Shown here: piece by piece, positions 217 to 31,887 of the stretch
Layout: the number at the start of each line of letters is the position of its first letter
Numbering within the stretch: position 1 is the stretch's first letter
DNA from: Opitutales bacterium
GTDB lineage: Bacteria > Verrucomicrobiota > Verrucomicrobiia > Opitutales > PNEW01
DNA length: 32,000 nt
Assembly: GCA_965219535.1 (NCBI GenBank)
Contig: CBDCNV010000002.1
Coordinates: 1,470,001-1,502,000 of the forward strand
Reading direction: 5' to 3'
Notes under the pieces: generated by a model
The model's input: only the letters and a program-made list of their open reading frames with translations
The model's database searches: none
What the model was told of the DNA's origin: nothing
Position numbers and translations under genes: made by a program

Positions 217-311
217 GCCGAAGAAGAGGGATAGCCACAAAAGGCACAAAAGGCGCAAAGAAGAGTTTTGAACCGCGGATATCGCAGATATGCGCGGATG
301 TTGATTTAGAT

Positions 312-480
312 CAGGTGAAACACGGTTCTTGATCTCAATGTCATCCCTCCTGCATTTGCAGGATGGATTGACTACGGCTATTCCCTAGCGCTTTTTTAAA
401 ATGTAATTTTAAAAAACGCGTAGGAAAAATCCGACACTCAGCTAGCTGAGTTATTGCGATCATGCACCGAGTTTCACCTG
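312..480 (+). repeat. Core element copy A (forward): 28-bp terminal inverted repeats enclosing three hairpins
   Basis: CAGGTGAAACACGGTTCTTGATCTCAAT at 312-339 pairs with ATTGCGATCATGCACCGAGTTTCACCTG at 453-480. Internal hairpins: GTCATCCCTCCTGCA-TTT-GCAGGATGGATTGAC, the AT-rich CTAGCGCTTTTTTAAAA-TGTAA-TTTTAAAAAACGCGTAG, and ACTCAGC-TA-GCTGAGT. Confidence 0.9.
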
Positions 481-733
481 AGCTTTCTCCCCGTTCTTCC
501 CGAACTTCCTGTAAAAAATCTCTTTTCTTTTTATGTGTCTCTTGTGCCTCTTGCCTGCCGGCCATAGCCTTGGCGACGGCTGGTGGCCAACAATCTTAAC
601 TTTTTTTTTATCGGCGTTCATCCGCGTTATCAGCGATTAATTCTTTTCGTTCTTCCTGTGTTTCCTGTTAAAGTTTTTTATTTTTGTTTTTTATCTTTCT
701 CTAATATCCTTCGCTAATTAGTTTAGAGATCAG

Positions 734-1480
734 ATGAATCAGATCGAATTACCTCAAAGTGAAAAATTTCATTTATTTCTCCTTGCTGGCCAGTCAAACA
801 TGGCGGGCAGGGGCTTGCTTGAGGAAGAGGATACTAATCCTCACCCGCGGGTCCTGACAATAACGAGAGATGGAGATTGGGTTCCGGCAGTGGATCCTAT
901 CCACTTCGATAAGCCGAATAAGGGAGTTTGCCTTGGCAGAACATTCGGCATTGAGGTTGCAGAACAGGATCCGGATATCGTGGTCGGCCTCATCCCCGCT
1001 GCCTGTGGCGGCTCTCCCATTTCTACCTGGCAGCCCGGTATGTATTTTAAGGCGACGGAAAGTCACCCCTACGACGACGCCATCCAAAGAACGAAAAGAG
1101 CGATGGAGGATGGCGAGTTAAAAGCCATTCTCTGGCATCAGGGAGAGACCGATGCACGGGAGCCAGATCTCTCCACAATTTATGAAAAAAAACTGCGCCG
1201 ATTAATTGTGCGATTCAGAGACGACCTCAACAGCCCGAATCTGCCCTTCATCATCGGTCAAATGGGCCAATTTCTGGGTAGCGAGTTTGATCGCGACGGA
1301 CTCGTCAATGAAGCCCACGTTAAGATAGCAAAAGAAGATGACAACTCCACCTTCGTCCCCTCCGATGGTCTGGGCTGCCTAAGCGACAACGTCCATTTCG
1401 ACGCCAAAGCATTACGCGAGTTCGGACATCGGTACGCGGAGGTGTATTTGCGTATACGCAAATACGTGTCTAAAGTCTAA
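734..1480 (+). CDS. SASA/DUF303-type carbohydrate esterase (sialate O-acetylesterase-like, SGNH-related)
   Basis: 248-aa ORF. The N-terminal LAGQSNMAGRG motif is characteristic of the sialic-acid 9-O-acetylesterase (SASA) family, with WHQGE downstream. The TAA stop lies inside a GTCNAAR heptamer array. Confidence 0.8.
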   Translation: MNQIELPQSEKFHLFLLAGQSNMAGRGLLEEEDTNPHPRVLTITRDGDWVPAVDPIHFDKPNKGVCLGRTFGIEVAEQDPDIVVGLIPAACGGSPISTWQPGMYFKATESHPYDDAIQRTKRAMEDGELKAILWHQGETDAREPDLSTIYEKKLRRLIVRFRDDLNSPNLPFIIGQMGQFLGSEFDRDGLVNEAHVKIAKEDDNSTFVPSDGLGCLSDNVHFDAKALREFGHRYAEVYLRIRKYVSKV

Positions 1481-1495
1481 GGTCCAAAGTCGAAA
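1468..1495 (+). repeat. GTCNAAR heptamer array (4 units) containing the esterase stop codon
   Basis: GTCTAAA GTCTAAG GTCCAAA GTCGAAA. The TAA at 1478-1480 lies inside unit 2. Confidence 0.85.
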
Positions 1496-1720
1496 GCGAA
1501 GAGCGCTCTCGCGCGGGGAGAAAGAGGGAATAGCCACAGCATTAAATGAAGATTTATGAATGATGAATGCAGAATGGAGAGGGATAGCCACCAGCCGTCG
1601 CCAAGGCTATGGCCGGCAAGCAAGAGGCACAGAAGGTACAAGAGGGATAAGAATAAATTTAACCACGAATGAACACGAATCGACACGAATAAAAGAGAGA
1701 AGAAATAGTAGTAACAAAGT

Positions 1721-1889
1721 CAGGTGAAACACGGTGCTTGATCTCAATTACATCTCACCCGTATCTACGGGAGCGATGTTACGGCTATTCCCTAGCGCTT
1801 TTTTAAAATGTAATTTTAAAAAAGCGCGTAGGAAACATCCGACACTCAGCTGTGCTGAGTTATTGCGATCAAGCACCGTGTTTCACCTG
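1721..1889 (+). repeat. Core element copy B (forward, class II first hairpin)
   Basis: Same TIRs. The first hairpin is replaced by the compensated variant TTACATCTCACCCGTA-TCT-ACGGGAGCGATGTTA. The left flank 1651-1717 is 67/67 identical to the left flank of the inverted copy E. Confidence 0.9.
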
Positions 1890-2131
1890 AGCTTAGTCCT
1901 ATTTCATTTATTTTTTGCCTAGCAGCCATAGCATTGGTGACGGTTGGTGTCCTACAACCTTAATTATTCATTTTATCGGCGTTCATTCGCGCTATCCGCG
2001 GTTCAGTCTTCCCGATCTTCTCGGTCTTCCTGTAAAAAATCTTTTTTGTGCTTCTTGTGCCTCTTGTGGCCAACTCTTCTATTCCTGCTTGTGCCGGTTA
2101 TCGGTTAAACTAGAGTGAGGGTTCTATTAAA

Positions 2132-3784: not shown

Positions 3785-3807
3785 GCGGGAAAATGCAAAA
3801 TCTTATT

Positions 3808-3979
3808 CAGGTGAAACACGGTGCTTTATCTCAATGTCATCTCTCCTGCATCTGCAGGAGTGATTGACTACGGCTATTCCCCAGCGCTTTTTTAAAATTG
3901 TGATTTTAAAAAACGCGTAGGAAACATCCGACATCCCGCTGTGGCGGGATTATTGCGATCAAGCACCGTGTTTCAACTG
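3808..3979 (+). repeat. Core element copy C (forward)
   Basis: Same architecture. The third hairpin carries the compensated variant ATCCCGC-TGT-GGCGGGAT instead of ACTCAGC...GCTGAGT. Confidence 0.9.
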
Positions 3980-4042
3980 GGCTTACTTCCCTTACGTCCC
4001 GTAGAAATCTTTCATGTGCTTCTTGTGCCTCTTGTGGCTATC

Positions 4043-4966: not shown

Positions 4967-5239
4967 ATTATTTTATATCAACAAGTATATGCGACTGATC
5001 TCATTTTATCGCTTTTAAAGTAATTAACGAGTCAAAAGTTCATTTCAATTTTCGATTTTCGATTGCCGATTGTCGATTGAAGAGAGATTGCCGATTGTAG
5101 ATTTGAGAAAAATTTAACCGCGGATAATACGGATAGGCGCGGATGGGAAATAAAGGAGTCGAAAGTCAAATGAGGGAATAGCCACAAAAAGCACAAAAGG
5201 CACAAAAAAATTAAAAAGATAAGAAATAAAAAGAGCTAT

Positions 5240-5410
5240 CAGTTGAAACACGATGCTTGATCGCGATGTCATCCCACCCGCATTTGCGGGAGGGATTGAC
5301 TACGGGTGATCCCTAGCGCTTTTTTTAAATCATCATTTAAAAAAACGCGTAGGAAACATCCGACACTCAGCTGTGCTGAGTTATTGAGATCAAGCACCGT
5401 GATTCACCTG
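5240..5410 (+). repeat. Core element copy D (forward)
   Basis: CAGTTGAAACACGATGCTTGATCGCGAT ... ATTGAGATCAAGCACCGTGATTCACCTG. The first hairpin apex is CCCGCA/TGCGGG. Confidence 0.9.
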
Positions 5411-5678
5411 ATCTTTTTTTCCGAACTTTCTGTCCTTCCTATATAAAATCTTTCTTTTCTTTTTGGAAGATGTCGCTTCGCTCGGTAGTGCCTCTTGTGG
5501 CTAATTAATCTTTGCTTTAAATTATATCCGCGTTCATTGGTTGATGTCGTCCCGCTGCTGCGCGACTCGGTAGTGTTATCCGCGGTCAGCCGTCACCCGT
5601 TGGGCTATGGCTGACAGGTACTGCGCGTCCCTCCAGAAAACGCACCGCTTATACACTTTTCCCATTATCGCATTTCCC

Positions 5679-8999: not shown

Positions 9000-9007
9000 T
9001 GGGGTTA

Positions 9008-9039
9008 GTCAAAAGGTCAAAAGGTCGAAAAGTCAAAAG
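9008..9039 (+). repeat. GTCAAAAR octamer array (4 units)
   Basis: GTCAAAAG GTCAAAAG GTCGAAAA GTCAAAAG, preceded by TAG. No plus-strand gene ends here. Confidence 0.85.
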
Positions 9040-9185
9040 GTTGAAGACGTGGAGAAAGAATAGCCACCAGCCGTCGCCAAGGCTATGGCCGGCAGGCAAG
9101 AGGCACAAGAAAGAATTGCACCGCAGAGGCGTAGAAGGCGAGGGAGTAATCAGTGAACAGTGAACGGTGAACAGTGAACAGTTGG

Positions 9186-9224
9186 GGAGTTGCGGATTTA
9201 TTATAATAATGCTAACTATTCTTA
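9186..9224 (+). promoter_or_regulatory. Conserved ~40-nt AT-rich module GAGTTGCGGATTTATTATAATAATGCTAACTATTCTTACC containing TATAAT (9202-9207); candidate promoter for the HAD gene
   Basis: The same module occurs at 12843-12886 (upstream of the VOC gene at 12972) and at 10283-10322 (no downstream plus-strand gene). No convincing -35 lies at 16-18 nt spacing. Confidence 0.3.
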
Positions 9225-9329
9225 CCTGAACCCTGAACCCTGAACCCTGAACCCTGAACCCTGAACCCTGAACCCTGAACCCTGAACCCTGAACCCTGAA
9301 CCCTGAACCCTGAACCCTGAACCCTGAAC
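9225..9329 (+). repeat. Perfect heptanucleotide microsatellite (CCTGAAC)x15, ending 4 nt before the HAD start codon
   Basis: I counted 15 uninterrupted units from 9225 to 9329. Confidence 0.95.
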
Positions 9330-9333
9330 CCCA

Positions 9334-10029
9334 ATGGAAAAATTAGAAAACATCAAAGCCCTAACCTTTGACCTCTTCGGGACGGTGCTCGATCTGGGAG
9401 GGAGTTTGAAGCCATTCATTGAGGAGTTTCTGAAAGAGAAGGGGTCTTCCGCGGATGCGGGGAAATTCTGGCAGCAGTGGCGTTATCGTCAAAGGATTGA
9501 ACAGTACCAGGACTCGCTCGTGATGTTGGGCCATAGTGGTTACCTGGAAACCGCACGCCGGGCTTTTGTCTATGTGCTTGGACTAAACCTCGTCGAGGCG
9601 TCGAAGGAAGAGGTGGACAATTTTATGGAGGCATGGATGGAATTGAACCCGTTTCCCGACGTCCTACCTGCATTGAAACAGCTATCTTCCCATTACAAGT
9701 TGGTCGCGCTTTCGAACGGCAACGCCTGGTTCCTCGAACATCTCGTTGCCAATCGTATCAAGTACGACTTCGACGCGGTGATATCAGTCGATACTTTCGG
9801 CGCATTCAAACCTCATCCCTCGGTTTACCGAGGAGCCGCCCGCATTCTCGAATTGGGGTTAGAGGAGATAATGATGGTCTCAACGAACTCGTTCGACGTG
9901 ATGGGAGCGCGTATGTGCGGCAATCGCGGAGCATTCGTCAATCGCGAAGCGCTTCCCTACGAGGATACACCGTATCAAGCGGATGTAATAGCAAAAGATT
10001 TCTCCGAGCTTTCTGACGTGCTCTTATGA
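9334..10029 (+). CDS. Haloacid dehalogenase type II / HAD-superfamily hydrolase
   Basis: 231-aa ORF. Motif I LTFDLFGTVLD, motif II ALSNGN, FKPHPSVY, and a distal STNSFDVMGA. The ATG follows directly after 15 CCTGAAC heptamers. Confidence 0.85.
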   Translation: MEKLENIKALTFDLFGTVLDLGGSLKPFIEEFLKEKGSSADAGKFWQQWRYRQRIEQYQDSLVMLGHSGYLETARRAFVYVLGLNLVEASKEEVDNFMEAWMELNPFPDVLPALKQLSSHYKLVALSNGNAWFLEHLVANRIKYDFDAVISVDTFGAFKPHPSVYRGAARILELGLEEIMMVSTNSFDVMGARMCGNRGAFVNREALPYEDTPYQADVIAKDFSELSDVLL

Positions 10030-10057: not shown

Positions 10058-10162
10058 GGGGGGAGGAGCGCTGATGCGCGTGTTAGGTTTTAAGTTTTAG
10101 GTGTTAGGTGAAGAGATAGCCTCACTATCATTTGGGGATTTGTAATATCGGTTATACTTTTT

Positions 10163-10197
10163 ATCGAAATCGAAATCGAAATCGAAATCGAAATCGA
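10163..10197 (+). repeat. Hexanucleotide repeat (ATCGAA)x5 plus a partial unit
   Basis: Direct reading of ATCGAAATCGAAATCGAAATCGAAATCGAAATCGA. Confidence 0.9.
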
Positions 10198-10322: not shown

Positions 10323-10378
10323 TGATATCCGACGTTTGATATCCGACGTTTGATATCCGACGTTTGATATCCGATGTT
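10323..10378 (+). repeat. 14-nt tandem repeat (TGATATCCGACGTT)x4, last unit with one mismatch
   Basis: Direct reading. It follows the TATAAT-containing module at 10283-10322. Confidence 0.9.
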
Positions 10379-11441: not shown

Positions 11442-11553
11442 TTTTGGATAGCCACAAAAAGCACAAAAGGCACAAGAGGGACAAGAATAAATTTAACCAC
11501 GAATGAACACGAATCGACACGAATAAAAGAGAGAAGAAATAGTAGTAACAAAT

Positions 11554-11723
11554 CAGGTAAAACACGATGCGTTATCTCAATAGCTCAGCATAGCTGAGCG
11601 CCAGATGTTTCCTACGCGTTTTTTTAAATTGTGATTTAAAAAAAGCGCTAGGGATCACCCGTAGTCAATCCACCCGCAAATGCGGGATGGATGACATTGA
11701 GATAAAGCATCGTGTTTCACCTG
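11554..11723 (-). repeat. Core element copy E (interior inverted relative to A-D and G-I)
   Basis: Hairpin order is reversed: GCTCAGC-ATA-GCTGAGC first, then the AT-rich hairpin, then GTCAATCCACCCGCA-AAT-GCGGGATGGATGAC. The flanks are in the same orientation as those of forward copies. Confidence 0.9.
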
Positions 11724-11900
11724 ATATTTCTTCCCGATCTTCCCGACTTTCCTGTAAAATTCTTTCTTTTCTTTTTTGTGTCTTCTGTGCCTTATGTGGC
11801 CAACTCTTCTTCTCCTTGCCCTGAGTTTAGTCGAAGAATGCGGTTCAAAATTTTAACCTTGAACCGTGTACCTTGAACCCTGAACCTTGCCGAAGGCAAA

Positions 11901-12842: not shown

Positions 12843-12886
12843 GGAGTTGCGGATTTATTATAATAGTGCGAACAATTCTTACCTGA
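12843..12886 (+). promoter_or_regulatory. Second copy of the TATAAT module (TATAAT at 12859-12864), upstream of the VOC gene at 12972
   Basis: GAGTTGCGGATTTATTATAATAGTGCGAACAATTCTTACCTGA, followed by degenerate CCTGAAC-type heptamers up to the ATG. Confidence 0.3.
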
Positions 12887-12971
12887 ACCCTGTACCGAGA
12901 GCGTAGCTCGACATCTTCCACCCTGAACCCTGAACCTTGAACCGTGAACGCTGAACCCGTATGGTGAATAT

Positions 12972-13328
12972 ATGAGGGAGTGGTATTCCAGACCGGTTTT
13001 TTTTGTCACGGATATGAAAAAGGCGTGTGACTTTTATTGTGAGGTCATGGGTTTTAAGGAAGCGTGGAGCTATGAGGATGAGGGGAAAAAGATAGTCGTG
13101 CAGATGACGCGTGGGAGTTGTGAAATCATCCTTAACGTGAATGCGAAACGCGCCGGGAATTCAAGACTGTTCATCGCGCTTGAGGTTGAAGAATTGAAAG
13201 TTTTGCAGAAAGAGATTGTTGAAAAATCGATAGAAACGAAAAATTTATTCTGGGGCTATCCCGTGATTGAGATTAAGGACCCGGATGGAAATGAGTTGTT
13301 GTTTCCGATAGAGGATAGGGAGCGCTAG
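12972..13328 (+). CDS. VOC superfamily protein (glyoxalase / bleomycin-resistance / dioxygenase fold)
   Basis: 118-aa ORF. FYCEVMGFKE near the N-terminus and IEIKDPDGNELLF near the C-terminus are classic VOC signatures. Confidence 0.8.
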   Translation: MREWYSRPVFFVTDMKKACDFYCEVMGFKEAWSYEDEGKKIVVQMTRGSCEIILNVNAKRAGNSRLFIALEVEELKVLQKEIVEKSIETKNLFWGYPVIEIKDPDGNELLFPIEDRER

Positions 13329-13443
13329 CGCGCCTCAAAAAGTCAAAAGGGGGGGACCAGTAAACAGTGAACAGTGAACAGTAAACAGTGGGAGCGCTGG
13401 GGCGCGCGTTAAGTTTTAGGTTGGACGATTCAGGATTCGATGT

Positions 13444-14887
13444 TTGTATTTTTCCCAATCCCAAATCCGCATTCCGACATCCGCAATTGAAATAACCGTG
13501 AACCGTGAACCCCGAACCTTGAACCCCAATATTATAATCATCTTTGCTGATGATTTGGGTTATGGGGACTTGGGTTGTTATGGATCGAAGGTGAATGTTA
13601 CGCCGCGGTTTGATCGGATGGCGGCGGAGGGGATGCGCTTCACTGATTTCTATGTTGCTTCACCGGTCTGTTCGCCATCGCGGGCTGCGTTGATGACTGG
13701 CTGTTATCCCAAGCGTATGGGTCTTGATTCGGGAACGGACTACGTGGTGTTGATGCCCGGGGACCCGATCGGCCTGGATGCTGAGAAATATACCCTTTCA
13801 CGGATGCTGAAGAATGCCGGTTACGCGACCAAGATCATAGGGAAGTGGCACCTTGGAGATCAGCCGGAGTTTCTTCCCGCGCGCCATGGATTTGACAGTT
13901 ATTTCGGCCTGCCCTACAGCAACGACATGTTACCGGATCACCCGAACAATGATAGTTATCATTTTCCGCCACTGCCCCTGATGAAAGATGAAGAAGTAAT
14001 GGAGGTAGACCCCAACCAGGCGTCATTAACGGATCGTTACACGGCTGAGGCCATCCGCTTCATCGAAGAGAACGCCGGGAACAATACTCCTTTCTTTCTC
14101 TACCTGCCCCACATGTACGTGCATATCCCTATTCATACCCCGATGAAGTACGACATAGCTTCAAAAAACGGAGTCTACGGCGCGGCGGTGGAGCACATGG
14201 ACGACAGCACGGGCTGTATTCTCGACACCCTGGAACGGATGGGTATCGATGAGAACACCCTCGTTATCTTCACTTCAGACAATGGATCGAGCTGCAGGGA
14301 AGGGGGGAGTAACACGCCTCTTCGTGGCACCAAGGGCACAACCTGGGAAGGCGGCATGCGCGAACCGTGCCTTATACGTTGGCCGGGAAAGATACCGGCC
14401 GGGTCAAGCTGTAATGAAATCACCACGACAATGGACCTGCTGCCAACGCTGACAAAACTTGCGAACGGGTTTATCCCGGACGATCACGTTATGGACGGGA
14501 AGGACATCTCTCCACTCATGCTGGGGAAAGACAGACGCCCGTAGTCCACATGCAGCCTTCTTCTATTATGGGACAGGAGACCACACCCTTCACGCGGTGC
14601 GCAACGGTAAGTGGAAGTTGCATCTGCTGCTCAATGAGCTCTATGACCTCGAGCGTGATATCGGTGAAGAACGAAACGTGTTCGTTGATCACCCCGAAAT
14701 AGTAGCGAAGCTTACAGCCCTGGCCGACGGTTGTCGAAAAGAACTGGGTGACGCCCACACGAATTCAGAAGGCAGTGGCTGCCAACCAGTAGGACACGTA
14801 AAGGACCCACAGACGCTCACATCATTAGATACGATGGATCCGATTATTCGCGCGATGTATGATTTGGATGACGCGCCAGGGCGCTAG
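13444..14887 (+). pseudogene. Formylglycine-dependent sulfatase (arylsulfatase family) interrupted by a 1-nt frameshift near 14527-14530
   Basis: IIIIFADDLGYGDLGCYGS plus the CSPSRAALMTG (CxPxR) motif lie in the 13444-14544 frame. The canonical C-terminus SPHAAFFYYGTG..AVRNGKWKLHL..LYDLERDIGEERNV continues in the +1 frame (14459-14887 ORF). The junction is at GGGGAAAG. No signal peptide is present, and the first ~25 codons are made of GTGAACC/CCTGAAC-type repeats. Confidence 0.75.
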
Positions 14888-14907
14888 CGTTGACATGCGT
14901 CAACGCT
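14886..14907 (+). other. 9-bp hairpin AGCGTTGAC-ATGC-GTCAACGCT overlapping the sulfatase stop codon
   Basis: Direct reading. TAG is at 14885-14887. Confidence 0.5.
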
Positions 14908-15086
14908 CGTCAAAAAGTCACCAGCCGTCGCCAAGGCTGTGGGCGTCAGGCAAAAAAGAAATTTACACCGCGGAGGTGGAGATTGAGAGTAGATAGTCAC
15001 TTTATCAAAGGGGTATCAGTGAAAAAAACCACGAATGAACACGAATAGGCACGAATAAAAGAGAGAAGAAATAGTAGTAACAAGAT

Positions 15087-15256
15087 CAGGTGAAACACGA
15101 TGCTTTATCTCAATAGCTCAGCATAGCTGAGCGCCAGATGTTTCCTACGCGTTTTTTTAAATTGTGATTTAAAAAAAGCGCTAGGGATCACCCGTAGTCA
15201 ATCCACCCGCAAATGCGGGATGGATGACATTGAGATAAAGCATCGTGTTTCACCTG
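15087..15256 (-). repeat. Core element copy F (interior inverted)
   Basis: The last ~142 nt are identical to copy E. The right flank CTTTCTTTCCGAACTTCCCGGCCTTCCTGTAAAAG matches the right flank of forward copy H. Confidence 0.9.
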
Positions 15257-15473
15257 ATCTTTCTTTCCGAACTTCCCGGCCTTCCTGTAAAAGTCTTTTT
15301 TGTGCTTTTGGAAGATCTAGCTTTGCTCTGGTAGTGACCAATTTATTTTATTTTTAAAATTACATTCGTGTTCATTCGTGGTCAATTATTTCGTATTTCC
15401 TTTATGAACTATTGACGTTTTAACCTTTTCACTCATCCATAACATAAACATAAAATTCAATTAGGAGAACCCT

Positions 15474-15836
15474 ATGTTAAAAAAAATAATTCCCAACGTA
15501 TTTTATGAGGATATTGAGGTGGGGCTTAGGCTGTTTGTGAAAACGTTAGGGTTTTCGGTGACCCATGAGGACCGTGAGGCGGAACAACCTTTGATTGTGG
15601 TGGAGAGGGATTCGGTGAAAGTGCATTTAGTAGAAAATGCTGAATATGCGGTGAAGGATCGTCCAGAAATACGCATCGAGACGGACGATATTGAAGCGGT
15701 CTATAAAGAGGTCGTGGCGAATAACAAAGATTACCTTCATCCCAATTCAAGTGGTCCCACTCTCCGGCCCTGGGGCTGTACTGAATTTGCACTTCTTGAT
15801 GAAACGAAAGTGTGTGTTATTATTCAGGAGTGGTAG
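15474..15836 (+). CDS. VOC superfamily protein (glyoxalase/bleomycin-resistance-like)
   Basis: 120-aa ORF with an AGGAG Shine-Dalgarno 8 nt upstream of the ATG. VFYEDIEVGLRLFVKTLGF is VOC-like at the N-terminus. Length and pattern fit a single VOC domain pair. Confidence 0.7.
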   Translation: MLKKIIPNVFYEDIEVGLRLFVKTLGFSVTHEDREAEQPLIVVERDSVKVHLVENAEYAVKDRPEIRIETDDIEAVYKEVVANNKDYLHPNSSGPTLRPWGCTEFALLDETKVCVIIQEW

Positions 15837-15855
15837 CGCGCCAGCACTGGCGCGC
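15836..15855 (+). other. 9-bp GC hairpin GCGCGCCAG-CA-CTGGCGCGC overlapping the last base of the VOC stop codon
   Basis: Direct reading. TAG is at 15834-15836. Confidence 0.5.
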
Positions 15856-16177
15856 GTCAAAAAGTCACCAGCCGTCGCCAAGGCTATGGCCGGCAGGAAA
15901 GGTCAAAAAGTCAAAAAAGGGGGGGAACCGGAAGGCCTGAGGGCCGGAAAACCAGAAAACCGGATGATTGGAGGACTAATTCCGACTTCAGCGGTTGCAG
16001 ATCGGTCATTGCTTCGGTTAAGGTGTGACCATCCTTTGCCTACGTTGTCACTAGGCTACGGACGGCAGGCAAGTTGCAGATTTATCCTAACGGTGTAATC
16101 GGTTCTTTCCTGAACCCTGAACCCTGAACCCTGTACCGAGAGCGTAGCTCGACATCTTCCACCCTGAACCCAAACGC

Positions 16178-16789: not shown

Positions 16790-16852
16790 GGGGGATGCGC
16801 GGTAGCGCGTGTTAAGTTTTAAGTGTTAGGTTTTAGGTAATTGACTTAAAAC

Positions 16853-18227
16853 GGTACAACCAGGACATGGTTTACAGATTTAGATCAAGACATGGTTTAC
16901 ACTTTGTGAGGGATGCTGAACGGTAATCGGGTTATATAGTTAAGTTAATGTTATGCGGTTTTAGAGGTTTGGCTGGCATTGTTGGGGCCGCAAGCGGCCC
17001 CAATGAAAGCAGCCGTTGAAAGGTCAATCTGACCGATTCTGAGAGTGGCAAAGTAAACATCGAAGTGTACCGTGTCTAGTGGTTTTAGTCCAACGCTCCA
17101 ACCGGCGAGGGCGGTGGAGATAGGAATCTGGAAGCCATCGAGTTTGATAGACCCGCTTTTTGAGACCCGGCGAGTCATCAAATCATAGCTGATATCGGCA
17201 GGAGTGCCACCGTAAGGATGAGAGCTGTGCTGATAGATTTCAGAGGGCGTGCTCATGGCAAGAGCCGCATGGGGGCGTTCTTCATTGAAGGTCTTGCGCC
17301 ACAGATCGAAGGCCACCTGTTGGGTGCGAAGATCGTCCTGGGCATGTTTTTGCAACTCCTCTTTGATATCGCGATGGAGACGCTCATGGGCACCGTTATC
17401 CTGGGGTTTACCCGGACGTCCACGCTCGAGATTGATCCCTAAGGCCAGCCACCAGGCCGCCAGTTTGCTCAGGCCCAGGACCGCATTGGCACTGGCAAAG
17501 GGACTGCCGTTGTCGCTGCGGATGCAAGCGGGAAGTCCATAGCGTTCAAAGAGTTTTGTGAAGCATTCACGCACCGCTTCGCTACGGGCTGAACTGAGCA
17601 CCCGCACCTCTAATACATAGCGGCTCCATTCATCCCGTACCGTCAAAGGTTCACAACGGTTGCCATCAACGGTGTGCCACCACCCTTTGAAGTCTACGCT
17701 CCACACTTCGTTACAGCCACTGGCCTTGACGCTGCGGTAAAGGCGTCCGCTTTTTTGAGCGCTTCTGCGCCGACGCTTTTGCACCAGTCCCGCACGTTCC
17801 AAGACCCGTTTCACGCTCGAGTCTGAGGGGGCCTTCCCGTAACGCCTCTGGTAAAGCTCGCGGATCTTGTAGGGGCCCCACGTCGGGTGATGATGCTTGA
17901 GTTTGATCAGCGTACATACTACTGATTCGGATAGTTCCTGAACACTTCCATGCGGTCGGCGTGAGCGCTCGTGCAACCCCTCCATCCCTTCGCTCAGGAA
18001 GCGCTTCTTCCATTTATACCCTGTCGGTCGGCTGATCCCGTAGTCTTCACACAGCTCGTTCATCTTTACTCCCGGTTGCATCGATTCCAGGGCGAATTGG
18101 TATCTTTGGTCCATTTTATTTGTTTCCTTCCATGACATCATACCCCTTACTTAGCATCCTTCTTTCTTTGGCAATCTGTAAAGGATGTCCTGAACCTTTT
18201 GTGTAAAGAATGTCTTGAACCTATACC
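16853..18227 (-). mobile_element. IS481-family insertion sequence (about 1.37 kb) with terminal inverted repeats that each carry two tandem CARGACATNNTTTACA sites
   Basis: Left end: CAGGACATGGTTTACA at 16861-16876 and CAAGACATGGTTTACA at 16886-16901. Right end, reverse complement: CAGGACATCCTTTACA within 18175-18192 and CAAGACATTCTTTACA within 18200-18217. GGTACA/GGTATA lies at the outer tips. The exact ends and the target duplication are not resolved. Confidence 0.75.
16951..18141 (-). CDS. IS481-family DDE transposase (HTH plus rve integrase core)
   Basis: 396-aa intact ORF. It has an N-terminal HTH (ISRPTGYKWKKRF). The DDE region comprises WSVDFKGWW, IRSDNGSPFAS and PGKPQDNGAHERLHRDIKEE. 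Confidence 0.9.
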   Translation of the reverse strand: MMSWKETNKMDQRYQFALESMQPGVKMNELCEDYGISRPTGYKWKKRFLSEGMEGLHERSRRPHGSVQELSESVVCTLIKLKHHHPTWGPYKIRELYQRRYGKAPSDSSVKRVLERAGLVQKRRRRSAQKSGRLYRSVKASGCNEVWSVDFKGWWHTVDGNRCEPLTVRDEWSRYVLEVRVLSSARSEAVRECFTKLFERYGLPACIRSDNGSPFASANAVLGLSKLAAWWLALGINLERGRPGKPQDNGAHERLHRDIKEELQKHAQDDLRTQQVAFDLWRKTFNEERPHAALAMSTPSEIYQHSSHPYGGTPADISYDLMTRRVSKSGSIKLDGFQIPISTALAGWSVGLKPLDTVHFDVYFATLRIGQIDLSTAAFIGAACGPNNASQTSKTA

Positions 18228-19534: not shown

Positions 19535-19808
19535 GTTAATCGATTGCGGATATCGGATTTTTGGGAGAAAGAGGGATAGCCACTACCGAGCGAAGCGAGA
19601 TCTTCCAAAGGCACAAGAAGCACAAGAGGCTCAAGAAAGAAATATGGAACTCAGGGACTCAGGAATCAAAGATTAAATAACCGTGGAGGCGCAGAGGTGG
19701 AGATTGAGAATAGATAGTCACTTTCTCAAAGGGGTATCAGTGAAAAAAACCACTAATGGACAAGAATTGGCACGAATAAAAGAGAGAGGAAATAGTAGTA
19801 ACAAAAGT

Positions 19809-19974
19809 CAGGTGAAACACGGTGCTTGATCTCAATTACATCTCACCCGTATTTACGGGAGTGATGTTACGGCTATTTCATAGCGCTTTTTTTAAATTGT
19901 GATTTAAAAAAACGCGTAGGAAACATCCGACACTCAGCTATGCTGAGTTATTGAGATCAAGCACGATTCGACTG
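19809..19974 (+). repeat. Core element copy G (forward, class II, degenerate right arm)
   Basis: Near-identical to copy B over the left TIR and first hairpin. The right TIR carries a small deletion (GCACGATTCGACTG). Confidence 0.85.
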
Positions 19975-20327
19975 AGCTCGTCACAGGCCGTGGTTCACCT
20001 TACAATTGTTCCAGGTCTCTTTATAAGGCTCTTTGTATATACTCTTCATAAATCTAAAACCTAACACCTAAAACTTAACACGAGCGTTAGCGCTCAACCT
20101 TTCCGCTTGCCACGCCATAGCTCGACTGAGCGTCGGCGGGTTCTCCCCGCTCTTCCTGTAAAAATCTTTCTTTTCTTTTTTGTGTCTCTTGCCTGCCGGG
20201 CATAGTCCCGCGACTGCGGGACGACGGCTGTTGCTTTTTGTGGGTAATAAATCTACTCCTTATATTGTATTCGTGTTCATTGGTGGTTAATTTTCTTCAT
20301 ATTTGATTAAGCTCAATTCCGAAAAGT

Positions 20328-23385: not shown

Positions 23386-23465
23386 GGGGGGGAGCGGAAA
23401 TCAGTGAACAGTAAACAGTGAACGGTGAGGGGAATGTGATTGCTTATTAATACACTGATTAAGCT

Positions 23466-23542
23466 AGGTGGAACGGGCTGTCCCTAGCGCGTTTGGATAT
23501 GTTTGTAAGTAAGAAGCGTGCTAGGGATAGCCCGCTCCACCT
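23466..23542. repeat. 26-bp imperfect inverted repeat (23/26 matching) with a 25-nt loop; shares the CCCTAGCGC word with the core element
   Basis: AGGTGGAACGGGCTGTCCCTAGCGCG at 23466-23491 versus CGTGCTAGGGATAGCCCGCTCCACCT at 23517-23542. It lies between the amidohydrolase 5' end and the paralog 1 3' end. Confidence 0.6.
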
Positions 23543-23573: not shown

Positions 23574-25799
23574 TCATTCGATCGTTATCTCATCTACTTC
23601 GACGGTTAGGTCATCGCCATCTTCGTTAGTGAAGGTGGCATTTATACTTCGCGTGGGCTGAGGGGTGTTGTCGGACTTAAAATTGTTCTGGGTGATCAAT
23701 CGATCGAAGCCACGGGTTGTCGATCCGCTCTCGGCAACGACGATTGAAGCTCCATTTGTCTGAACGAGGTCACCTCCGGTTATACGTAATCCGGGGTTGC
23801 CGGCGGCGACGGTGAAGGACCCTTCTCCAAATAAGAGGTGAGGAACTGCATCGCCATCGGCATCGATGTCGCCGACGGTTAAGCGTACCGCGATCGGTAC
23901 TCCGCGCGCATCGATACCAACTTTGCCCGTGCTACCACTGAAAACTGTATTCGATAACTGCATGCCTCCCATTCCCGTTGAATTGATCACTTCGACGAGG
24001 GTGACGTCCGCTTGTGCATCATAGACTTGTCCCTCGGGGAAGAGTGCCTGGTTAACGGCATTGATTCTACCGACGGTGAAAATACTGAAGAAGGTATTGG
24101 AGTCTGCTCCATCGATAACTACACTGGGTCTTCCGGTGACATACTCGACTGCCTGGTTGTAGCGCGGGGGTATTGCCGGGGGCAGGAAAGTGGTCGGGTC
24201 GAGGGTTACAGTAAAGTTGCCTGCGCCTGAGAACTCTACCTGCACAATGTCCTCGGTTTCGTCCATGAAGGAGACGCGAGTGATCTGATTGGGTCTTGCC
24301 AGGAGCCGGATACTTTCCCCGGTGAGTAAAATCTGATCGAATACATTACCGTTAGGATGCTGAATATTTTCCCCGGCGATATCACCCGTTCCTTCAAGGA
24401 CCAGAGGCACGGAGGGAGCCGCAACTGTGATGACCGCGGTATCACTATCAGCTGTACCTTCGGCGTTAGTTATCTGTACCCAGAAGTTTGTATCCGCATT
24501 GAGTGCACCTGTGTCTAAGACATTGCTCGTAGCGCCGGTGACAGGACTGGCGGTGTCACCACTGTTACCGGTAAACCACTGGTAAGTTAAATCTTCACCG
24601 CTGGCGGCAACGGACAAACTCGCGGATGCACCTGATGCAACTTCCTGGCTCGTGGGTTGCGTAGTGATAGCTGGAGCATCTGCTGGAGGCGGTGCCTCAG
24701 ATCCAGTTCCGGGAGCACCAATGGGTGTAAATCCAAAATCGTCAATGGCGGTACGGCTTCTTTCAGGATTAATATTAGGATCATCCTTCATCACTATCCT
24801 GCTAATGCCACCCGGGGCTCCCAGTTCCACTGCATTAATCGTTACAAAGCCAGGTTTGAACTCAGGTGTTATATCCCCTTCTAAATTTGTAAGGGTGGCG
24901 ATTAAGTTATCGTTTGTATCATAGACATCAACTGACCCATCGACATCTGAGCTACCTGATAAGACCACGGTAGCCCCGAAAAAATCAATTTCATATGCAG
25001 GGGTTTCAAAGGTAACAGTCGCTTCTTCACCATTAAATATCGCATAAGTATGAGGAATTGATCGCACACGTCCACCAGCAGCAGGTTCACCAAAAAATTG
25101 GATGAGACCTCCTTCAAAAGAAGCAGTAGTGGGTGGCGTTCCAATGACTAACGGTTCTGACTGACCTGCGCCCGCGCCAAATTCACTAAACATTGTGTAA
25201 AAAGTGTTGTTAGAGGGAAAATCCGTCAGGGTGAATCCCAGGTCATCGAGTGATAATTTTCCGGTTACATTCGAAAGCTTTACTTCAATAATGCCGCCGA
25301 GAAAGTTAAAATCATCTTCATCAAAAAAATTACCACTCTCTGCGACAAAGCTATATAATGTGGGGTTGGTATCGGGGCTGATATTAGTCGGCAGCCCTTC
25401 GATTACGCCGTCCTCGCCGATAAGGACGATCGCCTGACTATCTGCTCCGAACGCCGATTCATTGAGCACTCCCCTGATCTCCATCCTGCCAGCACCCGTG
25501 TTCTCAGCCGCATAAAATTCAATAAATTGAAGGCCTCTTGAGGATGAAATTCTCCCCTCCTGTCCAGGTGCCAGGGTTATCGCTTTTGTACCTGAATGTA
25601 AGAGCGCAGGATCCTCTAAAGTCTCCACAGTAAAACCGGATAGCGTAACCGTGTTTGGCTCCTGACCTATGATGATATTGCCTTCACCGCTGATGTCCTC
25701 GAAATCGGTGAACACCTCCAGGTCTTGAGGCAGGGCAATGAGAAGCAGCGGGGATAAAGTTGAGAAAATTATGAGCGCGAGAGAATTTTTGAAGAACAT
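23574..25799 (-). CDS. Secreted 741-aa protein, tandem paralog 1. Domains: signal peptide, two divergent beta-sandwich-like modules ending in (I/L)DD(L/F)GFT, an Ig-like domain, a ~255-aa invariant C-terminal domain and an acidic tail. No family recognised.
   Basis: Signal peptide MFFKNSLALIIFSTLSPLLLIALP. Ig-like block ITTQPTSQEVASGASASLSVAASGEDLTYQWF...VQITNAEGTADSDTAVITV. The C-terminal 281 aa are nearly identical to paralog 2. Confidence 0.9.
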   Translation of the reverse strand: MFFKNSLALIIFSTLSPLLLIALPQDLEVFTDFEDISGEGNIIIGQEPNTVTLSGFTVETLEDPALLHSGTKAITLAPGQEGRISSSRGLQFIEFYAAENTGAGRMEIRGVLNESAFGADSQAIVLIGEDGVIEGLPTNISPDTNPTLYSFVAESGNFFDEDDFNFLGGIIEVKLSNVTGKLSLDDLGFTLTDFPSNNTFYTMFSEFGAGAGQSEPLVIGTPPTTASFEGGLIQFFGEPAAGGRVRSIPHTYAIFNGEEATVTFETPAYEIDFFGATVVLSGSSDVDGSVDVYDTNDNLIATLTNLEGDITPEFKPGFVTINAVELGAPGGISRIVMKDDPNINPERSRTAIDDFGFTPIGAPGTGSEAPPPADAPAITTQPTSQEVASGASASLSVAASGEDLTYQWFTGNSGDTASPVTGATSNVLDTGALNADTNFWVQITNAEGTADSDTAVITVAAPSVPLVLEGTGDIAGENIQHPNGNVFDQILLTGESIRLLARPNQITRVSFMDETEDIVQVEFSGAGNFTVTLDPTTFLPPAIPPRYNQAVEYVTGRPSVVIDGADSNTFFSIFTVGRINAVNQALFPEGQVYDAQADVTLVEVINSTGMGGMQLSNTVFSGSTGKVGIDARGVPIAVRLTVGDIDADGDAVPHLLFGEGSFTVAAGNPGLRITGGDLVQTNGASIVVAESGSTTRGFDRLITQNNFKSDNTPQPTRSINATFTNEDGDDLTVEVDEITIE

Positions 25800-25840
25800 G
25801 GCGATCCCATTTGTCCGGTTAATATTAAAACGTATGAATT

Positions 25841-25869
25841 TAATTAATGGCTAACGGCTGCCCCGTCAA
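25841..25869 (-). promoter_or_regulatory. Sigma70-like promoter of paralog 1: TTGACG, 17-nt spacer, TAATTA
   Basis: Minus strand: -35 at 25869-25864 and -10 at 25846-25841, about 42 nt upstream of the ATG. The same architecture is conserved upstream of all three paralogs. Confidence 0.5.
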
Positions 25870-26054
25870 ATTTTAACCGCGGATAACACGGATGAACGCC
25901 GATAAAATAAATAGTGAAGATTGTTAGCCACAAAAGGCACAAGAGGCACAAGAAAGAAATTTGCACCGCAGAGGCTCAGAGGCGCAGAGGTGGAATTGGA
26001 GGAGTCTAAAGTCGGAGGTCGAAAGTCGAAAGTTGGAAAAAGCAAAATATTGTT

Positions 26055-26225
26055 CAGTTGAAACACGGTGCTTGATCGTCAATGTCATCCTTCCCGCAGA
26101 TGCGGGAGGATTGACTACGGCTGATCCCTAGCGCTTTTTTTAAATAATGATTTAAAAAAACGCGTAGGAAACATCCGACACTCAGCGATGCTGAGTTATT
26201 GAGATCAAGCACCGTGTTTCAACTG
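26055..26225 (+). repeat. Core element copy H (forward), 256 nt upstream of the paralog 1 start codon
   Basis: CAGTTGAAACACGGTGCTTGATCGTCAAT ... ATTGAGATCAAGCACCGTGTTTCAACTG. First hairpin: GTCATCCTTCCCGCA-GA-TGCGGGAGGATTGAC. Confidence 0.9.
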
Positions 26226-26361
26226 AGCTCTCTTTCCGAACTTCCCGTTCTTCCTGTAAAATCTTTTTTGTGCTTCTTGTGCCTCTTGTGGCCAACTCTA
26301 CTTTTACCCTGCGTCTCTGCGGTGAACTTTCTTAATCTAAAACCTTACACTGATCGATAAA

Positions 26362-28557: not shown

Positions 28558-28598
28558 GGCTATCCCTGTTGTCCGGTTAATATTCAAGCGATTGAATT

Positions 28599-28627: not shown

Positions 28628-28634
28628 ACTATAG

Positions 28635-28926: not shown

Positions 28927-28970
28927 AGAGCAGTGACACCTAACACATAATAGGCATTAGGTCTCCTACA

Positions 28971-28994: not shown

Positions 28995-28995
28995 C

Positions 28996-31299: not shown

Positions 31300-31485
31300 A
31301 TTTTATCCGCGGATAACGCGGATGGGAAATAGAGGAGTCGAAAGTCGAAGATCGATCAGGGAATAGCCACAAAAAGCACAAAAGGCACAAAACCGAAATT
31401 TGCACCGCAGAGGCGCAGAGGTGGAATTGGAGGAGTCTAAAGTCTAAGGTCGAAAGTCGAAAGTGGGAAAAAGCAAAATGTTGTT

Positions 31486-31655
31486 CAGGTGAAACACGGT
31501 GCATGATCTCAATGTCATCCATCCCGCAGATGCGGGAGGATTGACAATGGCTATTCCTAACGCGTTTTTTAAAATCATGATTTTTAAAAACGCGTAGGAA
31601 ACAGCCGACACTCAGCTGTGCTGAGTTATTGCGATCAAGCACCGTGTTTCACCTG
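31486..31655 (+). repeat. Core element copy I (forward), 256 nt upstream of the paralog 3 start codon
   Basis: Same architecture, embedded in an upstream region homologous to 25800-26054. Confidence 0.9.
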
Positions 31656-31887
31656 ATAGTTGTTCTCTGTCATACTATAAAATCCATAGTAATGTCTTTT
31701 CTCCAACTTAATTCCTAATCCGTGCTATCTGCGTCACCCGCGGTTCACTCTCCCCGATCTTCCCGGCTTTCCTGTAAAATCTTTATAATTTATTTCATCT
31801 GTGTTATCTGCGGTTCAATTTCTTAACCTAAAACCTAACACTTAAAACTTAACACGCGCTTTAGCGCTTCTCTGCGGTGAATGGGAT

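What the first reader, a model, noticed from the sequence alone, without database searches (positions are those of the whole stretch)
11485..11765. The core interior occurs in both orientations inside identical asymmetric flanks, as expected of an invertible segment
Copy B (forward) and copy E (inverted) share a left flank that is 67/67 identical: 1651-1717 equals 11485-11551 (GAATAAATTTAACCACGAATGAACACGAATCGACACGAATAAAAGAGAGAAGAAATAGTAGTAACAA). They also share homologous right-flank words (CTTCCCGATCTTC..CTTCCTGTAAAA at 2008 and 11730). Between the 28-bp inverted repeats, however, the ~115-nt interior is flipped. Likewise, inverted copy F shares its right flank (TTTCCGAACTTCCCG..CTTCCTGTAAAA) with forward copies A, D and H. 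The left and right flanks are unrelated to each other, so the context is asymmetric and only the interior changes direction. Two mechanisms would give this pattern. One is DNA inversion by recombination across the inverted repeats, as in phase-variable invertons. The other is orientation-independent insertion of a MITE into a highly specific target within a pre-existing repeat. Copies H and I each sit exactly 256 nt upstream of a tandem secreted-protein gene, so an orientation-dependent regulatory effect is conceivable. No invertase gene is present in this window.
Basis: partly seen in the sequence, partly recalled or inferred. Interest (0 to 1): 0.8.

Follow-up and report, generated by a model that had tools for sequence, protein, structure and literature searches.

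The report
Fixed-orientation palindromic repeat in mosaic spacers
A 172-base hairpin-forming repeat in the gene spacers of an Opitutales bacterium does lie in both directions next to identical flanking sequence, but each copy's direction is a fixed, inherited state produced by rare old inversions and copying between repeats, not a working genetic switch.

Summary
Positions 1651-1717 and 11485-11551 are 67/67 identical. The 172-nt core next to them has a real polarity and is flipped in copies E and F.

The "invertible segment" reading does not hold:
- All 14 locus comparisons with two other strains of the same species show the window's orientation.
- In five related lineages, no cassette appears in two orientations at the same orthologous site.
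- Copy F has the same flanks and a 96% identical core, still inverted, in a lineage whose adjacent PhyH protein is only 91% identical.
- A second, older cassette type is inverted in all six full copies, spread over five lineages.
- Copy E became inverted by acquiring the already-inverted F cassette. Its right arm is still orthologous to that of a forward copy in a relative.

A clean MITE insertion is not supported either. There is no target duplication, no empty site for the core alone and no parent transposase.

The core is a constrained four-way palindrome, nested in a mosaic of short repeat modules that exchange patches. The family is low-copy and concentrated in one roughly 45-kb neighbourhood. 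It is an undescribed but ordinary kind of intergenic repeat.

The parts
11553..11724 (-). Core copy E, interior inverted. Terminal inverted repeats at 11553-11581 and 11696-11724, hairpin 2 at 11583-11599, central AT-rich palindrome at 11611-11653, hairpin 1 at 11670-11690.
   Evidence: Folds as ssDNA at -53.7 kcal/mol against -17.8 +/- 2.7 for shuffles, z = -13.
11485..11552 (+). Left proximal module 'X' of copy E: three CACGAAT-type units plus AAAAGAGAGAAGAAATAGTAGTAACAA. The 67-mer is identical to 1651-1717.
11725..11759 (+). Right proximal module 'R' of copy E (TATTTCTTCCCGATCTTCCCGACTTTCCTGTAAAA). It is orthologous (90%) to the right arm of the forward E-locus copy in lineage R.
11449..11484 (+). 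Outer octamer module on the left end of the composite at E (TAGCCACAAAAAGCACAAAAGGCACAAGAGGGACAA). It is identical in L006 at the orthologous site.
11774..11801 (-). Outer octamer module on the right end of the composite at E, the inverted repeat of the left one.
15086..15257 (-). Core copy F, interior inverted, 99% identical to E. The same cassette, also inverted, is at the orthologous site in lineage R (L018:3831-4002, core 96%).
15021..15085 (+). Module X of copy F. A 'type 2' far-left arm precedes it (about 14961-15020).
   Evidence: (D14).
15258..15292 (+). Module R of copy F.
   Evidence: (D12, D17, D18).
1720..1890 (+). Core copy B, forward, beta-type hairpin 1. Module X lies at 1651-1719 and its R module is displaced to 2007-2036.
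311..481 (+). Core copy A, forward.
3807..3980 (+). Core copy C, forward.
5238..5411 (+). Core copy D, forward.
19808..20003 (+). Core copy G, forward. Its right terminal repeat is interrupted by a 24-nt insertion (19965-19988). Module X is at 19743-19807. The whole block 19658-20045 is absent at the orthologous site in the MAG.
26053..26226 (+). Core copy H, forward. Its orthologue in the MAG is 98% identical and in the same orientation.
31485..31656 (+). Core copy I, forward. It is a paralogue of H through the tandem duplication of the 741-aa genes.
16861..18192 (-). IS481-family insertion sequence (transposase at 16951-18141). It is the only recombinase-like gene in the window, and its ends are unrelated to the core's terminal repeats.

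Best explanation
**What it is.** The 172-nt core is a non-coding, hairpin-forming palindromic repeat. It has a 28-bp terminal stem, two side hairpins and a long AT-rich central palindrome. It sits inside a larger composite repeat of about 350 nt. That composite is built from short modules: octamer arrays at both ends, a slot of three tandem 7-10-mers, and proximal linkers.

**How orientation behaves.** Each copy's orientation is a fixed, vertically inherited property of its cassette (left module, core, right module). It is not a switchable state.

**How inverted cassettes arose.** They arose at least three times in the family's history. The likely route is recombination or replication template-switching across the core's own symmetric 28-bp ends, or replacement from an inversely aligned donor. 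Once formed, they were inherited and copied.

**How the finding's pattern arose.** Ectopic gene conversion among the dispersed copies reshuffles modules. This is how an identical left module comes to sit beside unrelated cores of either direction. In the window lineage specifically:
- Locus F carries an old inverted cassette.
- Locus E acquired that already-inverted core from F, 3.5 kb away, while keeping its resident right arm.
- The left modules of B and E were homogenised very recently.

**Shown versus inferred.** Fixity, heritability, cassette replacement and mosaicism are shown. The molecular route of the original inversions, and gene conversion as the copying mechanism, are inferred.
For: **Fixity within the species.**
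- Two other strain assemblies carry A-F and A-E, G-I unchanged in sequence and orientation, 14 of 14 comparisons. The same strains do differ in tandem-repeat copy number, in a 3.2-kb deletion and in IS content.

**Fixity across lineages.**
- F in lineage R (the adjacent PhyH protein is 91% identical) has the same far-left arm, X, inverted core and R module. Identities are left 85%, core 96% on the same strand against 71% flipped, right 85%.
- A, B, C, D, H, the HAD-rhamnosidase site and the rhamnosidase-ABC site are concordant wherever two or more lineages have a core.

**Heritable orientation.**
- The four type-V cores clustered form their own group (84-94% within, at most 84% to others). These four, and two further type-V copies found by BLAST at 91-98% identity to L016's type-V core, are all inverted.
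- Two remnants are also known: the 38-nt E-locus remnant is the end of an inverted core, and a 30-nt remnant matches on the opposite strand.
- The same left-arm end (...CCATAGGTTATA) is joined to forward cores of other subfamilies.

**History of locus E.**
- Lineages R, M and N have forward cores at E. R's right arm is 90% identical to the window's, but its left arm and core differ.
- Window E's core is 99% identical to F's. Its X module is 97-100% identical to B's but 89% to F's.

**Mosaicism.**
- Far-left arm, X, core and right arm give conflicting groupings among B, E, F, G and N_C.
- Inside the cores, hairpin-1 alleles and centre alleles occur in all four combinations (5, 5, 3, 2), and 41% of 465 informative site pairs are incompatible.
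- Cores at orthologous sites are sometimes only 78-85% identical.

**Structure.**
- 95% of cells are paired, against 37-41% when partners are slid. 16 pairs show double changes against 5.7 +/- 1.5 in shuffles, 0 of 500 reaching 16.
- Folding z-score is -13.
- G.T (13) and A.C (10) mismatches are balanced, so the constraint has no strand bias.
Against: - Consensus assemblies cannot exclude a minority orientation within populations. No reads were available.
- The route of the original inversions is not resolved. The terminal repeats are too symmetric to tell an in-place flip from an inverse insertion or an inverse conversion.
- Conversion tracts are inferred from identity patterns, not observed.
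- F is inverted in four lineages although two different cassette types occupy the site. This could hint at orientation-dependent selection there.
- No enzyme that could move or copy the element was identified.
Confidence: 0.72

Rival explanations
1. Programmed phase variation. Each core is an inverton flipped by a site-specific recombinase encoded elsewhere, acting on the shared 28-bp inverted repeats, as in the Mpi-controlled promoters of Bacteroides fragilis.
For: - The geometry fits: 28-nt inverted repeats around a roughly 115-nt interior, many loci sharing one repeat consensus, and both orientations present.
- H and I lie upstream of paralogous genes with Ig-like domains.
Against: - 14 of 14 same-species comparisons are concordant.
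- All orthologous same-cassette pairs across lineages are concordant, including F at 96% identity.
- Orientation is clade-specific: all six full type-V copies are inverted.
- Opposite-orientation copies with the same flank carry different core subfamilies.
- There is no sigma-70-like promoter or terminator in the core.
- There is no serine or tyrosine recombinase in the window, and none among the Pfam-annotated genes called in the 9 kb upstream.
- Orientation does not correlate with the direction of neighbouring genes.
Confidence: 0.04
2. Classical MITE. A trans-acting transposase inserts the 172-nt core, in either orientation, into a preferred target inside the pre-existing outer repeat.
For: - The core has terminal inverted repeats, is small and non-coding, and is multi-copy.
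- Outer composites without a core exist (L005 at the G site, L004:287-745).
- Junctions with the flanks are sharp, always at TCAGGTG / CACCTGA.
- Some loci have cores in only some lineages.
Against: - No target-site duplication at any copy.
- No orthologous comparison shows presence or absence of the core alone. The differences seen are whole composites, a 387-nt block, or whole cassettes.
- Orientation is strongly biased and clade-specific, not random.
- The family is low-copy and concentrated in one neighbourhood, not dispersed.
- The IS481 ends are unrelated, and blastn with core queries found no core-like sequence at the IS1595 copies in L007 and L011.
Confidence: 0.15
3. REPIN-like element, moved as single-stranded DNA by a RAYT or other HUH (Y1) transposase. 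The hairpins would be the recognition structures.
For: - Symmetric doublet architecture, a hairpin or 'clover' fold, frequent compensatory changes, and no target duplication.
- Copies lie within or next to other repeats, and the family is clustered. These are features described for REPINs (PMC3116915).
Against: - No RAYT or HUH gene among the window ORFs tested or among the Pfam-annotated genes called in the fetched flanks. The 156-aa ORF without a Pfam hit is a hydrophobic membrane protein.
- The core is longer and more elaborate than described REPINs.
- The two halves are only about 60% related to each other.
Confidence: 0.07

Closest known systems
Invertons: phase-variable invertible promoters, such as fimS and the Mpi-controlled polysaccharide promoters of Bacteroides fragilis (from my own knowledge)
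   Same: Short inverted repeats bracket a segment of 100-200 nt. Several loci share one repeat consensus. Both orientations occur relative to the flanks.
   Different: Orientation is fixed within the species and conserved between species. There is no promoter consensus inside, no recombinase nearby, and no link to gene direction. Copies in opposite orientations belong to different sequence lineages.
MITEs, such as Correia elements of Neisseria and ERIC/IRU of enterobacteria (from my own knowledge)
   Same: Size near 150-170 nt, terminal inverted repeats of about 26-28 nt, intergenic, non-coding, found in either orientation, able to fold into a long hairpin.
   Different: No target-site duplication, no clean empty sites, no identifiable parent IS, low copy number, and confinement to one genomic neighbourhood.
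REPINs and their RAYT transposases (PMC3116915)
   Same: Palindromic doublet organisation with hairpin and clover folds. Compensatory changes are common. Copies lie into or beside existing repeats, and clusters occur.
   Different: No RAYT was found in the DNA available. The element is larger, with two dissimilar side hairpins and a long AT-rich central palindrome.
BIMEs of E. coli and BOX elements of Streptococcus pneumoniae: modular, mosaic intergenic repeats (from my own knowledge)
   Same: Intergenic mosaics are assembled from a small vocabulary of short modules in variable combinations. A palindromic unit occurs in either orientation between specific linker motifs.
   Different: The modules differ in sequence and phylum (Verrucomicrobiota). 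Many modules are triplets of 7-10-mers whose unit sequence changes in concert (CGCGGAT, CACGAAT, GCAGAGG). All composites in the region point the same way.

Membership tests
Inverton (programmed invertible segment) | Inverted repeats flank the segment | tested here: met
   28-nt terminal inverted repeats at all nine copies.
Inverton (programmed invertible segment) | Both orientations of the same segment occur at one locus, within or between closely related populations | tested here: not met
   14 of 14 same-species locus comparisons are concordant. Orthologous same-cassette pairs across lineages are all concordant. This is assembly-level evidence only; no reads were available.
Inverton (programmed invertible segment) | A dedicated serine or tyrosine recombinase, usually nearby | tested here: not met
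   Pfam scans of the window's ORFs find only an IS481 DDE transposase. The genes called in the flanking loci include none. A distant master invertase cannot be excluded.
Inverton (programmed invertible segment) | The segment carries a promoter or other direction-dependent signal | tested here: not met
   No sigma-70-like promoter or intrinsic terminator falls inside the core at E or H. The scan uses a consensus that may not fit Verrucomicrobiota.
MITE | Short non-coding element with terminal inverted repeats, in multiple copies | tested here: met
MITE | Target-site duplication flanks the copies | tested here: not met
   The junctions of more than 25 copies show no direct repeat.
MITE | Empty sites in relatives that differ by exactly the element | tested here: not met
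   The differences seen are a whole composite (B), a 387-nt block (G) or a whole cassette (E), never the 172-nt core alone.
MITE | A parent IS with matching terminal repeats | tested here: inconclusive
   The IS481 ends are unrelated, and blastn with core queries found no core-like sequence at the IS1595 copies in L007 and L011. Whole genomes could not be searched.
REPIN | Inverted doublet that forms a hairpin, with compensatory changes | tested here: met
   95% of cells paired, 16 covarying pairs, 0 of 500 shuffles reach that number, z = -13.
REPIN | A cognate RAYT (Y1/HUH) gene, typically next to a cluster | tested here: inconclusive
   None in the window, and none among the Pfam-annotated genes called in the fetched flanking loci. 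Complete genomes are not searchable with these tools.
Integron attC array (considered because structured repeats point the same way between genes of variable content) | R''/R' core sites (RYYYAAC ... GTTRRRY) and an integrase, or an array in uniform orientation | tested here: not met
   The ends read GTGAAAC ... GTTTCAC, which violates both consensus sites (checked by eye). The terminal stem is 28 bp, not 7 bp boxes with extrahelical bases. Two of the nine cores are inverted. No tyrosine recombinase was found.

The most novel reading that the evidence does not exclude
The co-oriented composites with their structured cores could be more than passive repeats. They could be the recombination sites of a regional cassette-exchange system that shapes the gene content of this roughly 45-kb neighbourhood of sulfatase, esterase, dioxygenase and transporter genes. 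Supporting hints: gene-level gains, losses and inversions between lineages often end at composites; the family is almost confined to this region in at least six lineages; and F stays inverted although different cassette types occupy it. A weaker variant is rare, recombinase-driven switching that consensus assemblies cannot see.
Probability: 0.06. Interest if true: 0.75.

Novelty: new member of a known kind. Interest (0 to 1): 0.3.

Why it matters
This case shows that "same flanks, flipped interior" is not enough to call an inverton from one genome. Symmetric terminal repeats combined with gene conversion among dispersed copies give the same picture.

The locus is also a clear natural example of intergenic repeats evolving as exchangeable cassettes. 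Orientation behaves as a heritable marker, in a phylum (Verrucomicrobiota) where, as far as I know, such repeats have not been described.

The regional confinement, the uniform direction of the composites and the nested 24-40-nt hairpin mini-elements are worth a specialist's look. None of them overturns current understanding.

Tried and rejected
- **Cyanobacterial origin.** I first guessed this from the heptamer repeats. It is wrong. The only representative genome with exact matches is an Opitutales MAG, OY829953.1.
- **Rfam at gathering thresholds.** No family matched anywhere in the window.
- **Scans for the left module X.** Zero hits in the GTDB representative genomes and zero in the JGI metagenomes. 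It turned up only in syntenic loci of lineages N and R.
- **Core 20-mer in JGI metagenomes.** One contig, and it is also syntenic.
- **IS481 as parent.** Rejected, because its ends are unrelated.
- **The 156-aa ORF as a RAYT.** Rejected. It is a hydrophobic membrane protein with no Pfam hit.
- **RNA gene on one strand.** No support. G.T and A.C mismatches are balanced, and there are no promoter or terminator signals.
- **Integron-like attC array.** Rejected on end motifs, stem geometry, the inverted members and the lack of an integrase.
- **Large inversion between E and F as the cause of their orientation.** Rejected, because both copies keep their left and right modules in normal orientation.
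- **Using terminal-repeat asymmetries to tell an in-place flip from an inverse insertion.** Uninformative, because the two ends of a copy are homogenised.
- **L007 and L008.** These hold a 92% identical ABC protein in another genomic context. They contain no cores and almost no outer modules.

Full report
**1.

The sequence 1651-1717 equals 11485-11551 exactly, 67 of 67 bases, and the identity extends to 70 nt. The window holds nine copies of a roughly 172-nt core bounded by 28-nt inverted repeats. The terminal-repeat pattern matches 14 times at up to three mismatches, with none expected by chance.

| Copy | Coordinates | Interior |
|---|---|---|
| A | 311-481 | forward |
| B | 1720-1890 | forward |
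| C | 3807-3980 | forward |
| D | 5238-5411 | forward |
| E | 11553-11724 | inverted |
| F | 15086-15257 | inverted |
| G | 19808-20003 | forward |
| H | 26053-26226 | forward |
| I | 31485-31656 | forward |

The interior has a true polarity. It is about 60% identical to its own reverse complement. Flipped E is 75-89% identical to the other interiors, while unflipped whole copy E scores 66-69% against the other copies. So E and F are inverted relative to the rest.

- The distal flank modules (TAGCCACAAAAGGCACAAGAGG... and ...CTTGTGCCTCTTGTGGCC) are inverted repeats of each other. Only the proximal modules are asymmetric.
- B and E are not flips of each other. Their left flank is 100% identical, but their cores are 81% identical overall and 78% in the interior. 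E's interior is nearest to D and H, at 87-89%.

**2. Anatomy**

An alignment of 18 copies folds into a four-way structure: a 28-bp terminal stem, hairpin 1, a long AT-rich central palindrome and hairpin 2.
- 95% of cells are paired, against 37-41% when the partners are slid.
- 16 pairs show changes on both sides, against 5.7 +/- 1.5 in shuffles. None of 500 shuffles reaches 16.
- Copy E folds as single-stranded DNA at -53.7 kcal/mol, against -17.8 +/- 2.7 for shuffles, z = -13.
- G.T mismatches (13) and A.C mismatches (10) are balanced, so the constraint does not favour one strand.
- No sigma-70-like promoter or intrinsic terminator lies in the core. Rfam has no match.

The core sits inside a composite of about 350 nt made of short modules: octamer arrays at both ends, a slot of three tandem 7-10-mers (CGCGGAT, CACGAAT or GCAGAGG flavours), linkers, and a right module ending in CTTCCTGTAAAA. 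Every right module (CTTCCTGTAAAA) found in the window lies on the + strand, whatever the direction of the neighbouring genes, so the composites are co-oriented.

**3. Who carries it**

The only GTDB representative genome with exact matches is an Opitutales MAG, OY829953.1. Through protein anchors I obtained:
- two other strains of the window's species (L001, L002, L010, L011, L013);
- five related lineages whose orthologous proteins are 89-93% identical: M (L003-L005, L014, L015), N (L006), Q (L016, L017), R (L018, L019) and S (L009, L020-L025).

Three of the four hits from unbiased scans are syntenic with this window. The 9.3 kb upstream of the window has no core. A paralogous region elsewhere (L007, L008) has none. 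The family is therefore low-copy and concentrated in one neighbourhood of about 45 kb. This is an inference from a probe of partial sensitivity.

**4. Test of the inverton reading**

Within the species, strain 1 covers loci A-F and strain 2 covers A-E, G, H and I. All 14 comparisons match the window in sequence and orientation. The same strains differ in heptamer, hexamer and 14-mer copy number, in a 3.2-kb deletion between direct repeats, and in IS content.

Across lineages, wherever the same cassette is present at an orthologous site, its orientation is the same: A, B, C, D, H, and the sites between HAD and rhamnosidase and between rhamnosidase and the ABC gene.

The most telling case is F. 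Lineage R has the same far-left arm, X module, inverted core and right module at the orthologous site. The left flank is 85% identical, the core is 96% identical on the same strand against 71% flipped, and the right flank is 85%.

A second cassette type, which I call type V, has three shared parts: a left arm ending in ...AGAATACCATAGGTTATAT, an inverted core, and a right arm starting GTTTTGGTATTTATTAAAACC.
- All six full copies are inverted: N_x20241 (lineage N), the F-locus copies of M and Q, the copies in the PhyH-HAD spacer of M and R, and the copy at S's B locus.
- The 38-nt remnant at Q's E locus is the end of an inverted core, and a 30-nt remnant in lineage S matches on the opposite strand.
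- Four of the six cores were clustered and group together at 84-94%, with at most 84% to any other core. The other two match L016's type-V core at 91% and 98% by BLAST.
- The same left-arm end is joined to forward cores of other subfamilies.

Orientation is therefore a character inherited by clade. At least three independent inversion events explain all the data: the type-V ancestor, the E/F type, and L004's copy. There is no serine or tyrosine recombinase in the window or among the genes called in the flanks.

**5. How E came to be inverted**

Lineages M, N and R all have forward cores at the E locus. R's right arm is 90% identical to the window's right arm over 50 nt, so that arm is orthologous. 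R's left arm is of the CGCGGAT type and its core is a forward B-like copy.

Window E's core is 99% identical to window F's. Its X module is 97-100% identical to B's but only 89% to F's.

The simplest history is this. F carried an old inverted cassette. Its core was copied into E, 3.5 kb away, with the tract ending near the core's right end. Later, the X modules of B and E were homogenised. With typical divergence between copies near 10%, a run of 70 matches has a probability of about 0.9^70, or 6e-4. The 67-mer identity therefore marks a recent copying event, not shared descent of a whole composite.

**6. Test of the MITE reading**

- No copy has a target-site duplication.
- No comparison shows presence or absence of the 172-nt core alone. 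Lineage N lacks the whole composite at B. The MAG lacks a 387-nt block at G that carries a far-left arm, X, the core and a tail, and the junction shows only 2-4 nt of microhomology. At E, whole cassettes are exchanged between conserved outer modules.
- The IS481 ends (TGTAAACCATGTCCTG) do not resemble the core's terminal repeats.
- Orientation is biased and clade-specific, not random.

Coreless composites do exist. An early insertion of cores into an older repeat therefore remains possible.

**7. Evidence for exchange between copies**

- Far-left arm, X module, core and right arm give conflicting groupings among B, E, F, G and N's locus-C copy.
- Inside the cores, two hairpin-1 alleles that differ at ten or more positions combine with two centre alleles in all four ways (5, 5, 3, 2). 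Of 465 informative site pairs, 41% fail the four-gamete test. L003:5152 is a visible chimera inside hairpin 1.
- Cores at orthologous sites are sometimes 92-98% identical (H, B, and A between window and N). Elsewhere they are only 78-85% identical while the site is conserved (C, D, E, and A between window and M).

**8. Mechanism**

Shown:
- orientation is fixed and inherited;
- cassettes are replaced at conserved sites;
- modules and cores are mosaics.

Inferred:
- The mosaics arise by ectopic gene conversion, with shared modules as homology.
- The rare inversions arose at the core's own symmetric 28-bp ends, by recombination, by replication template-switching across a close inverted repeat, or by conversion from an inversely aligned donor.

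From general knowledge, template switching in quasi-palindromes would also produce the paired changes seen in the two terminal repeats of one copy. The symmetric ends also explain why identity between B and E stops at the core boundary. Beyond it, the two loci are no longer colinear.

**9. Comparison with known systems**

It looks like an inverton but fails the defining tests for one. It looks like a MITE but lacks a target duplication, empty sites and a parent IS. It shares the palindromic doublet, the clover fold, the compensatory changes and the nesting of REPINs (PMC3116915), but no RAYT was found in the DNA available. Its modular mosaic recalls BIMEs and BOX elements. I file it as an undescribed family of structured palindromic intergenic repeats within a mosaic array, a new member of a known kind.

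**10. Limits**

- No sequencing reads were available, so a low-frequency minority orientation cannot be excluded.
- Complete genomes could not be searched, so copy number, the mobilising enzyme and the relation to the replication arms remain open.

Noticed in passing
window 5465(-), 10428(+), 12893(+), 16134(+), 19584(+), 28706(-); also L003, L004, L006, L007, L009, L016: A family of hairpin mini-elements of 27-40 nt. The ends are conserved (TACCGAG ... GACATCTTCCA) and the stem-loop between them is variable and compensated. They are inserted inside heptamer arrays and octamer modules. The copy at 19584 is absent from the orthologous site in L005 (22-23 nt gained, one A lost). They resemble cyanobacterial 'small dispersed repeats'.
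   Followed up: partly
window 19965-19988; L003:7353, L005:5153, L005:7931: A 24-nt insertion, GATTCGACTGAGCTCGTCRCAGGC, sits inside the right terminal repeat of some cores. It is present in L005:7772 but absent from its orthologue, window copy H. It partly resembles the adjacent repeat end, so it may be a diverged local duplication.
   Followed up: partly
window 1660-1690 compared with L003:5100-5140: At orthologous locus B, the three tandem units of the left module differ in concert between lineages (CGCGGAT in the MAG, CACGAAT in the window). Almost every difference is G to A. Other unit flavours (GCAGAGG, CTCAGGGA) fill the same structural slot elsewhere.
   Followed up: no
window 230-31800: Every right module (CTTCCTGTAAAA) found in the 32-kb window lies on the + strand, whatever the direction of the neighbouring genes. 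This suggests a bias relative to the strand or to replication, or spread by local copying.
   Followed up: no
window 534-1640 (gene 734-1480): The SASA esterase gene is flanked by inverted copies of a 63-nt module (534-596 and 1578-1640, 86% complementary). The gene is inverted in the MAG (L003:4265-4984) relative to the window and L006. This is a true evolutionary inversion between inverted repeat modules.
   Followed up: partly
window 9218-9240, 10162-10168, 10336-10349, 15362, 16108: Strains of the same species differ almost only in the copy number of short tandem repeats: 7-mers (CCTGAAC), a 6-mer (TTCGAT), a 14-mer and a 10-mer. All of these lie in intergenic spacers.
   Followed up: no
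window 12930-16123: Strain 2 (L002) lacks this 3.2-kb block, which holds the glyoxalase gene, the sulfatase gene, core F and the 120-aa gene. The junction lies in direct repeats at about 12845-12930 and 16072-16171. The MAG lacks the sulfatase block as well.
   Followed up: partly
window 16839-17723 and 16861-18192: The IS481 element is intact in the window. In strain 1 (L001), about 200 nt stand in place of 885 nt of it. In lineages S and M a core occupies the spacer between the 156-aa gene and the desaturase gene, where the window carries the IS.
   Followed up: no
window 13444-14887: The sulfatase gene is split into two overlapping ORFs of 366 and 142 aa. Orthologues in other lineages are single genes of 448-457 aa. 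This is a frameshift or a homopolymer sequencing error. L001 has an extra A at 13584.
   Followed up: no
window 23450-23530: A different palindrome of about 75 nt (GGTGGAACGGGCTGTCCCTAGCGCG ... CGTGCTAGGGATAGCCCGCTCCACC) shares the CCCTAGCGC motif with the core's central palindrome. It lies where the MAG has a full composite with a core (L005:4994).
   Followed up: no
window 23574-31230: Three tandem paralogues of 741-744 aa carry an Ig-like (Ig_7) domain. The identical 256-nt spacing of H and I from two of their start codons comes from duplication of each gene together with its upstream composite. The middle paralogue has a (CAGTGAA)n array upstream instead.
   Followed up: partly
L006:6581-9334, L014:9625-12378, L016:9219-11981, L018:10607-13369: Lineages M, N, Q and R have a 917-920-aa rhamnosidase gene between the HAD and ABC genes, bracketed by two forward cores in M and N. 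The window lacks both the gene and the cores at 9000-9334.
   Followed up: no
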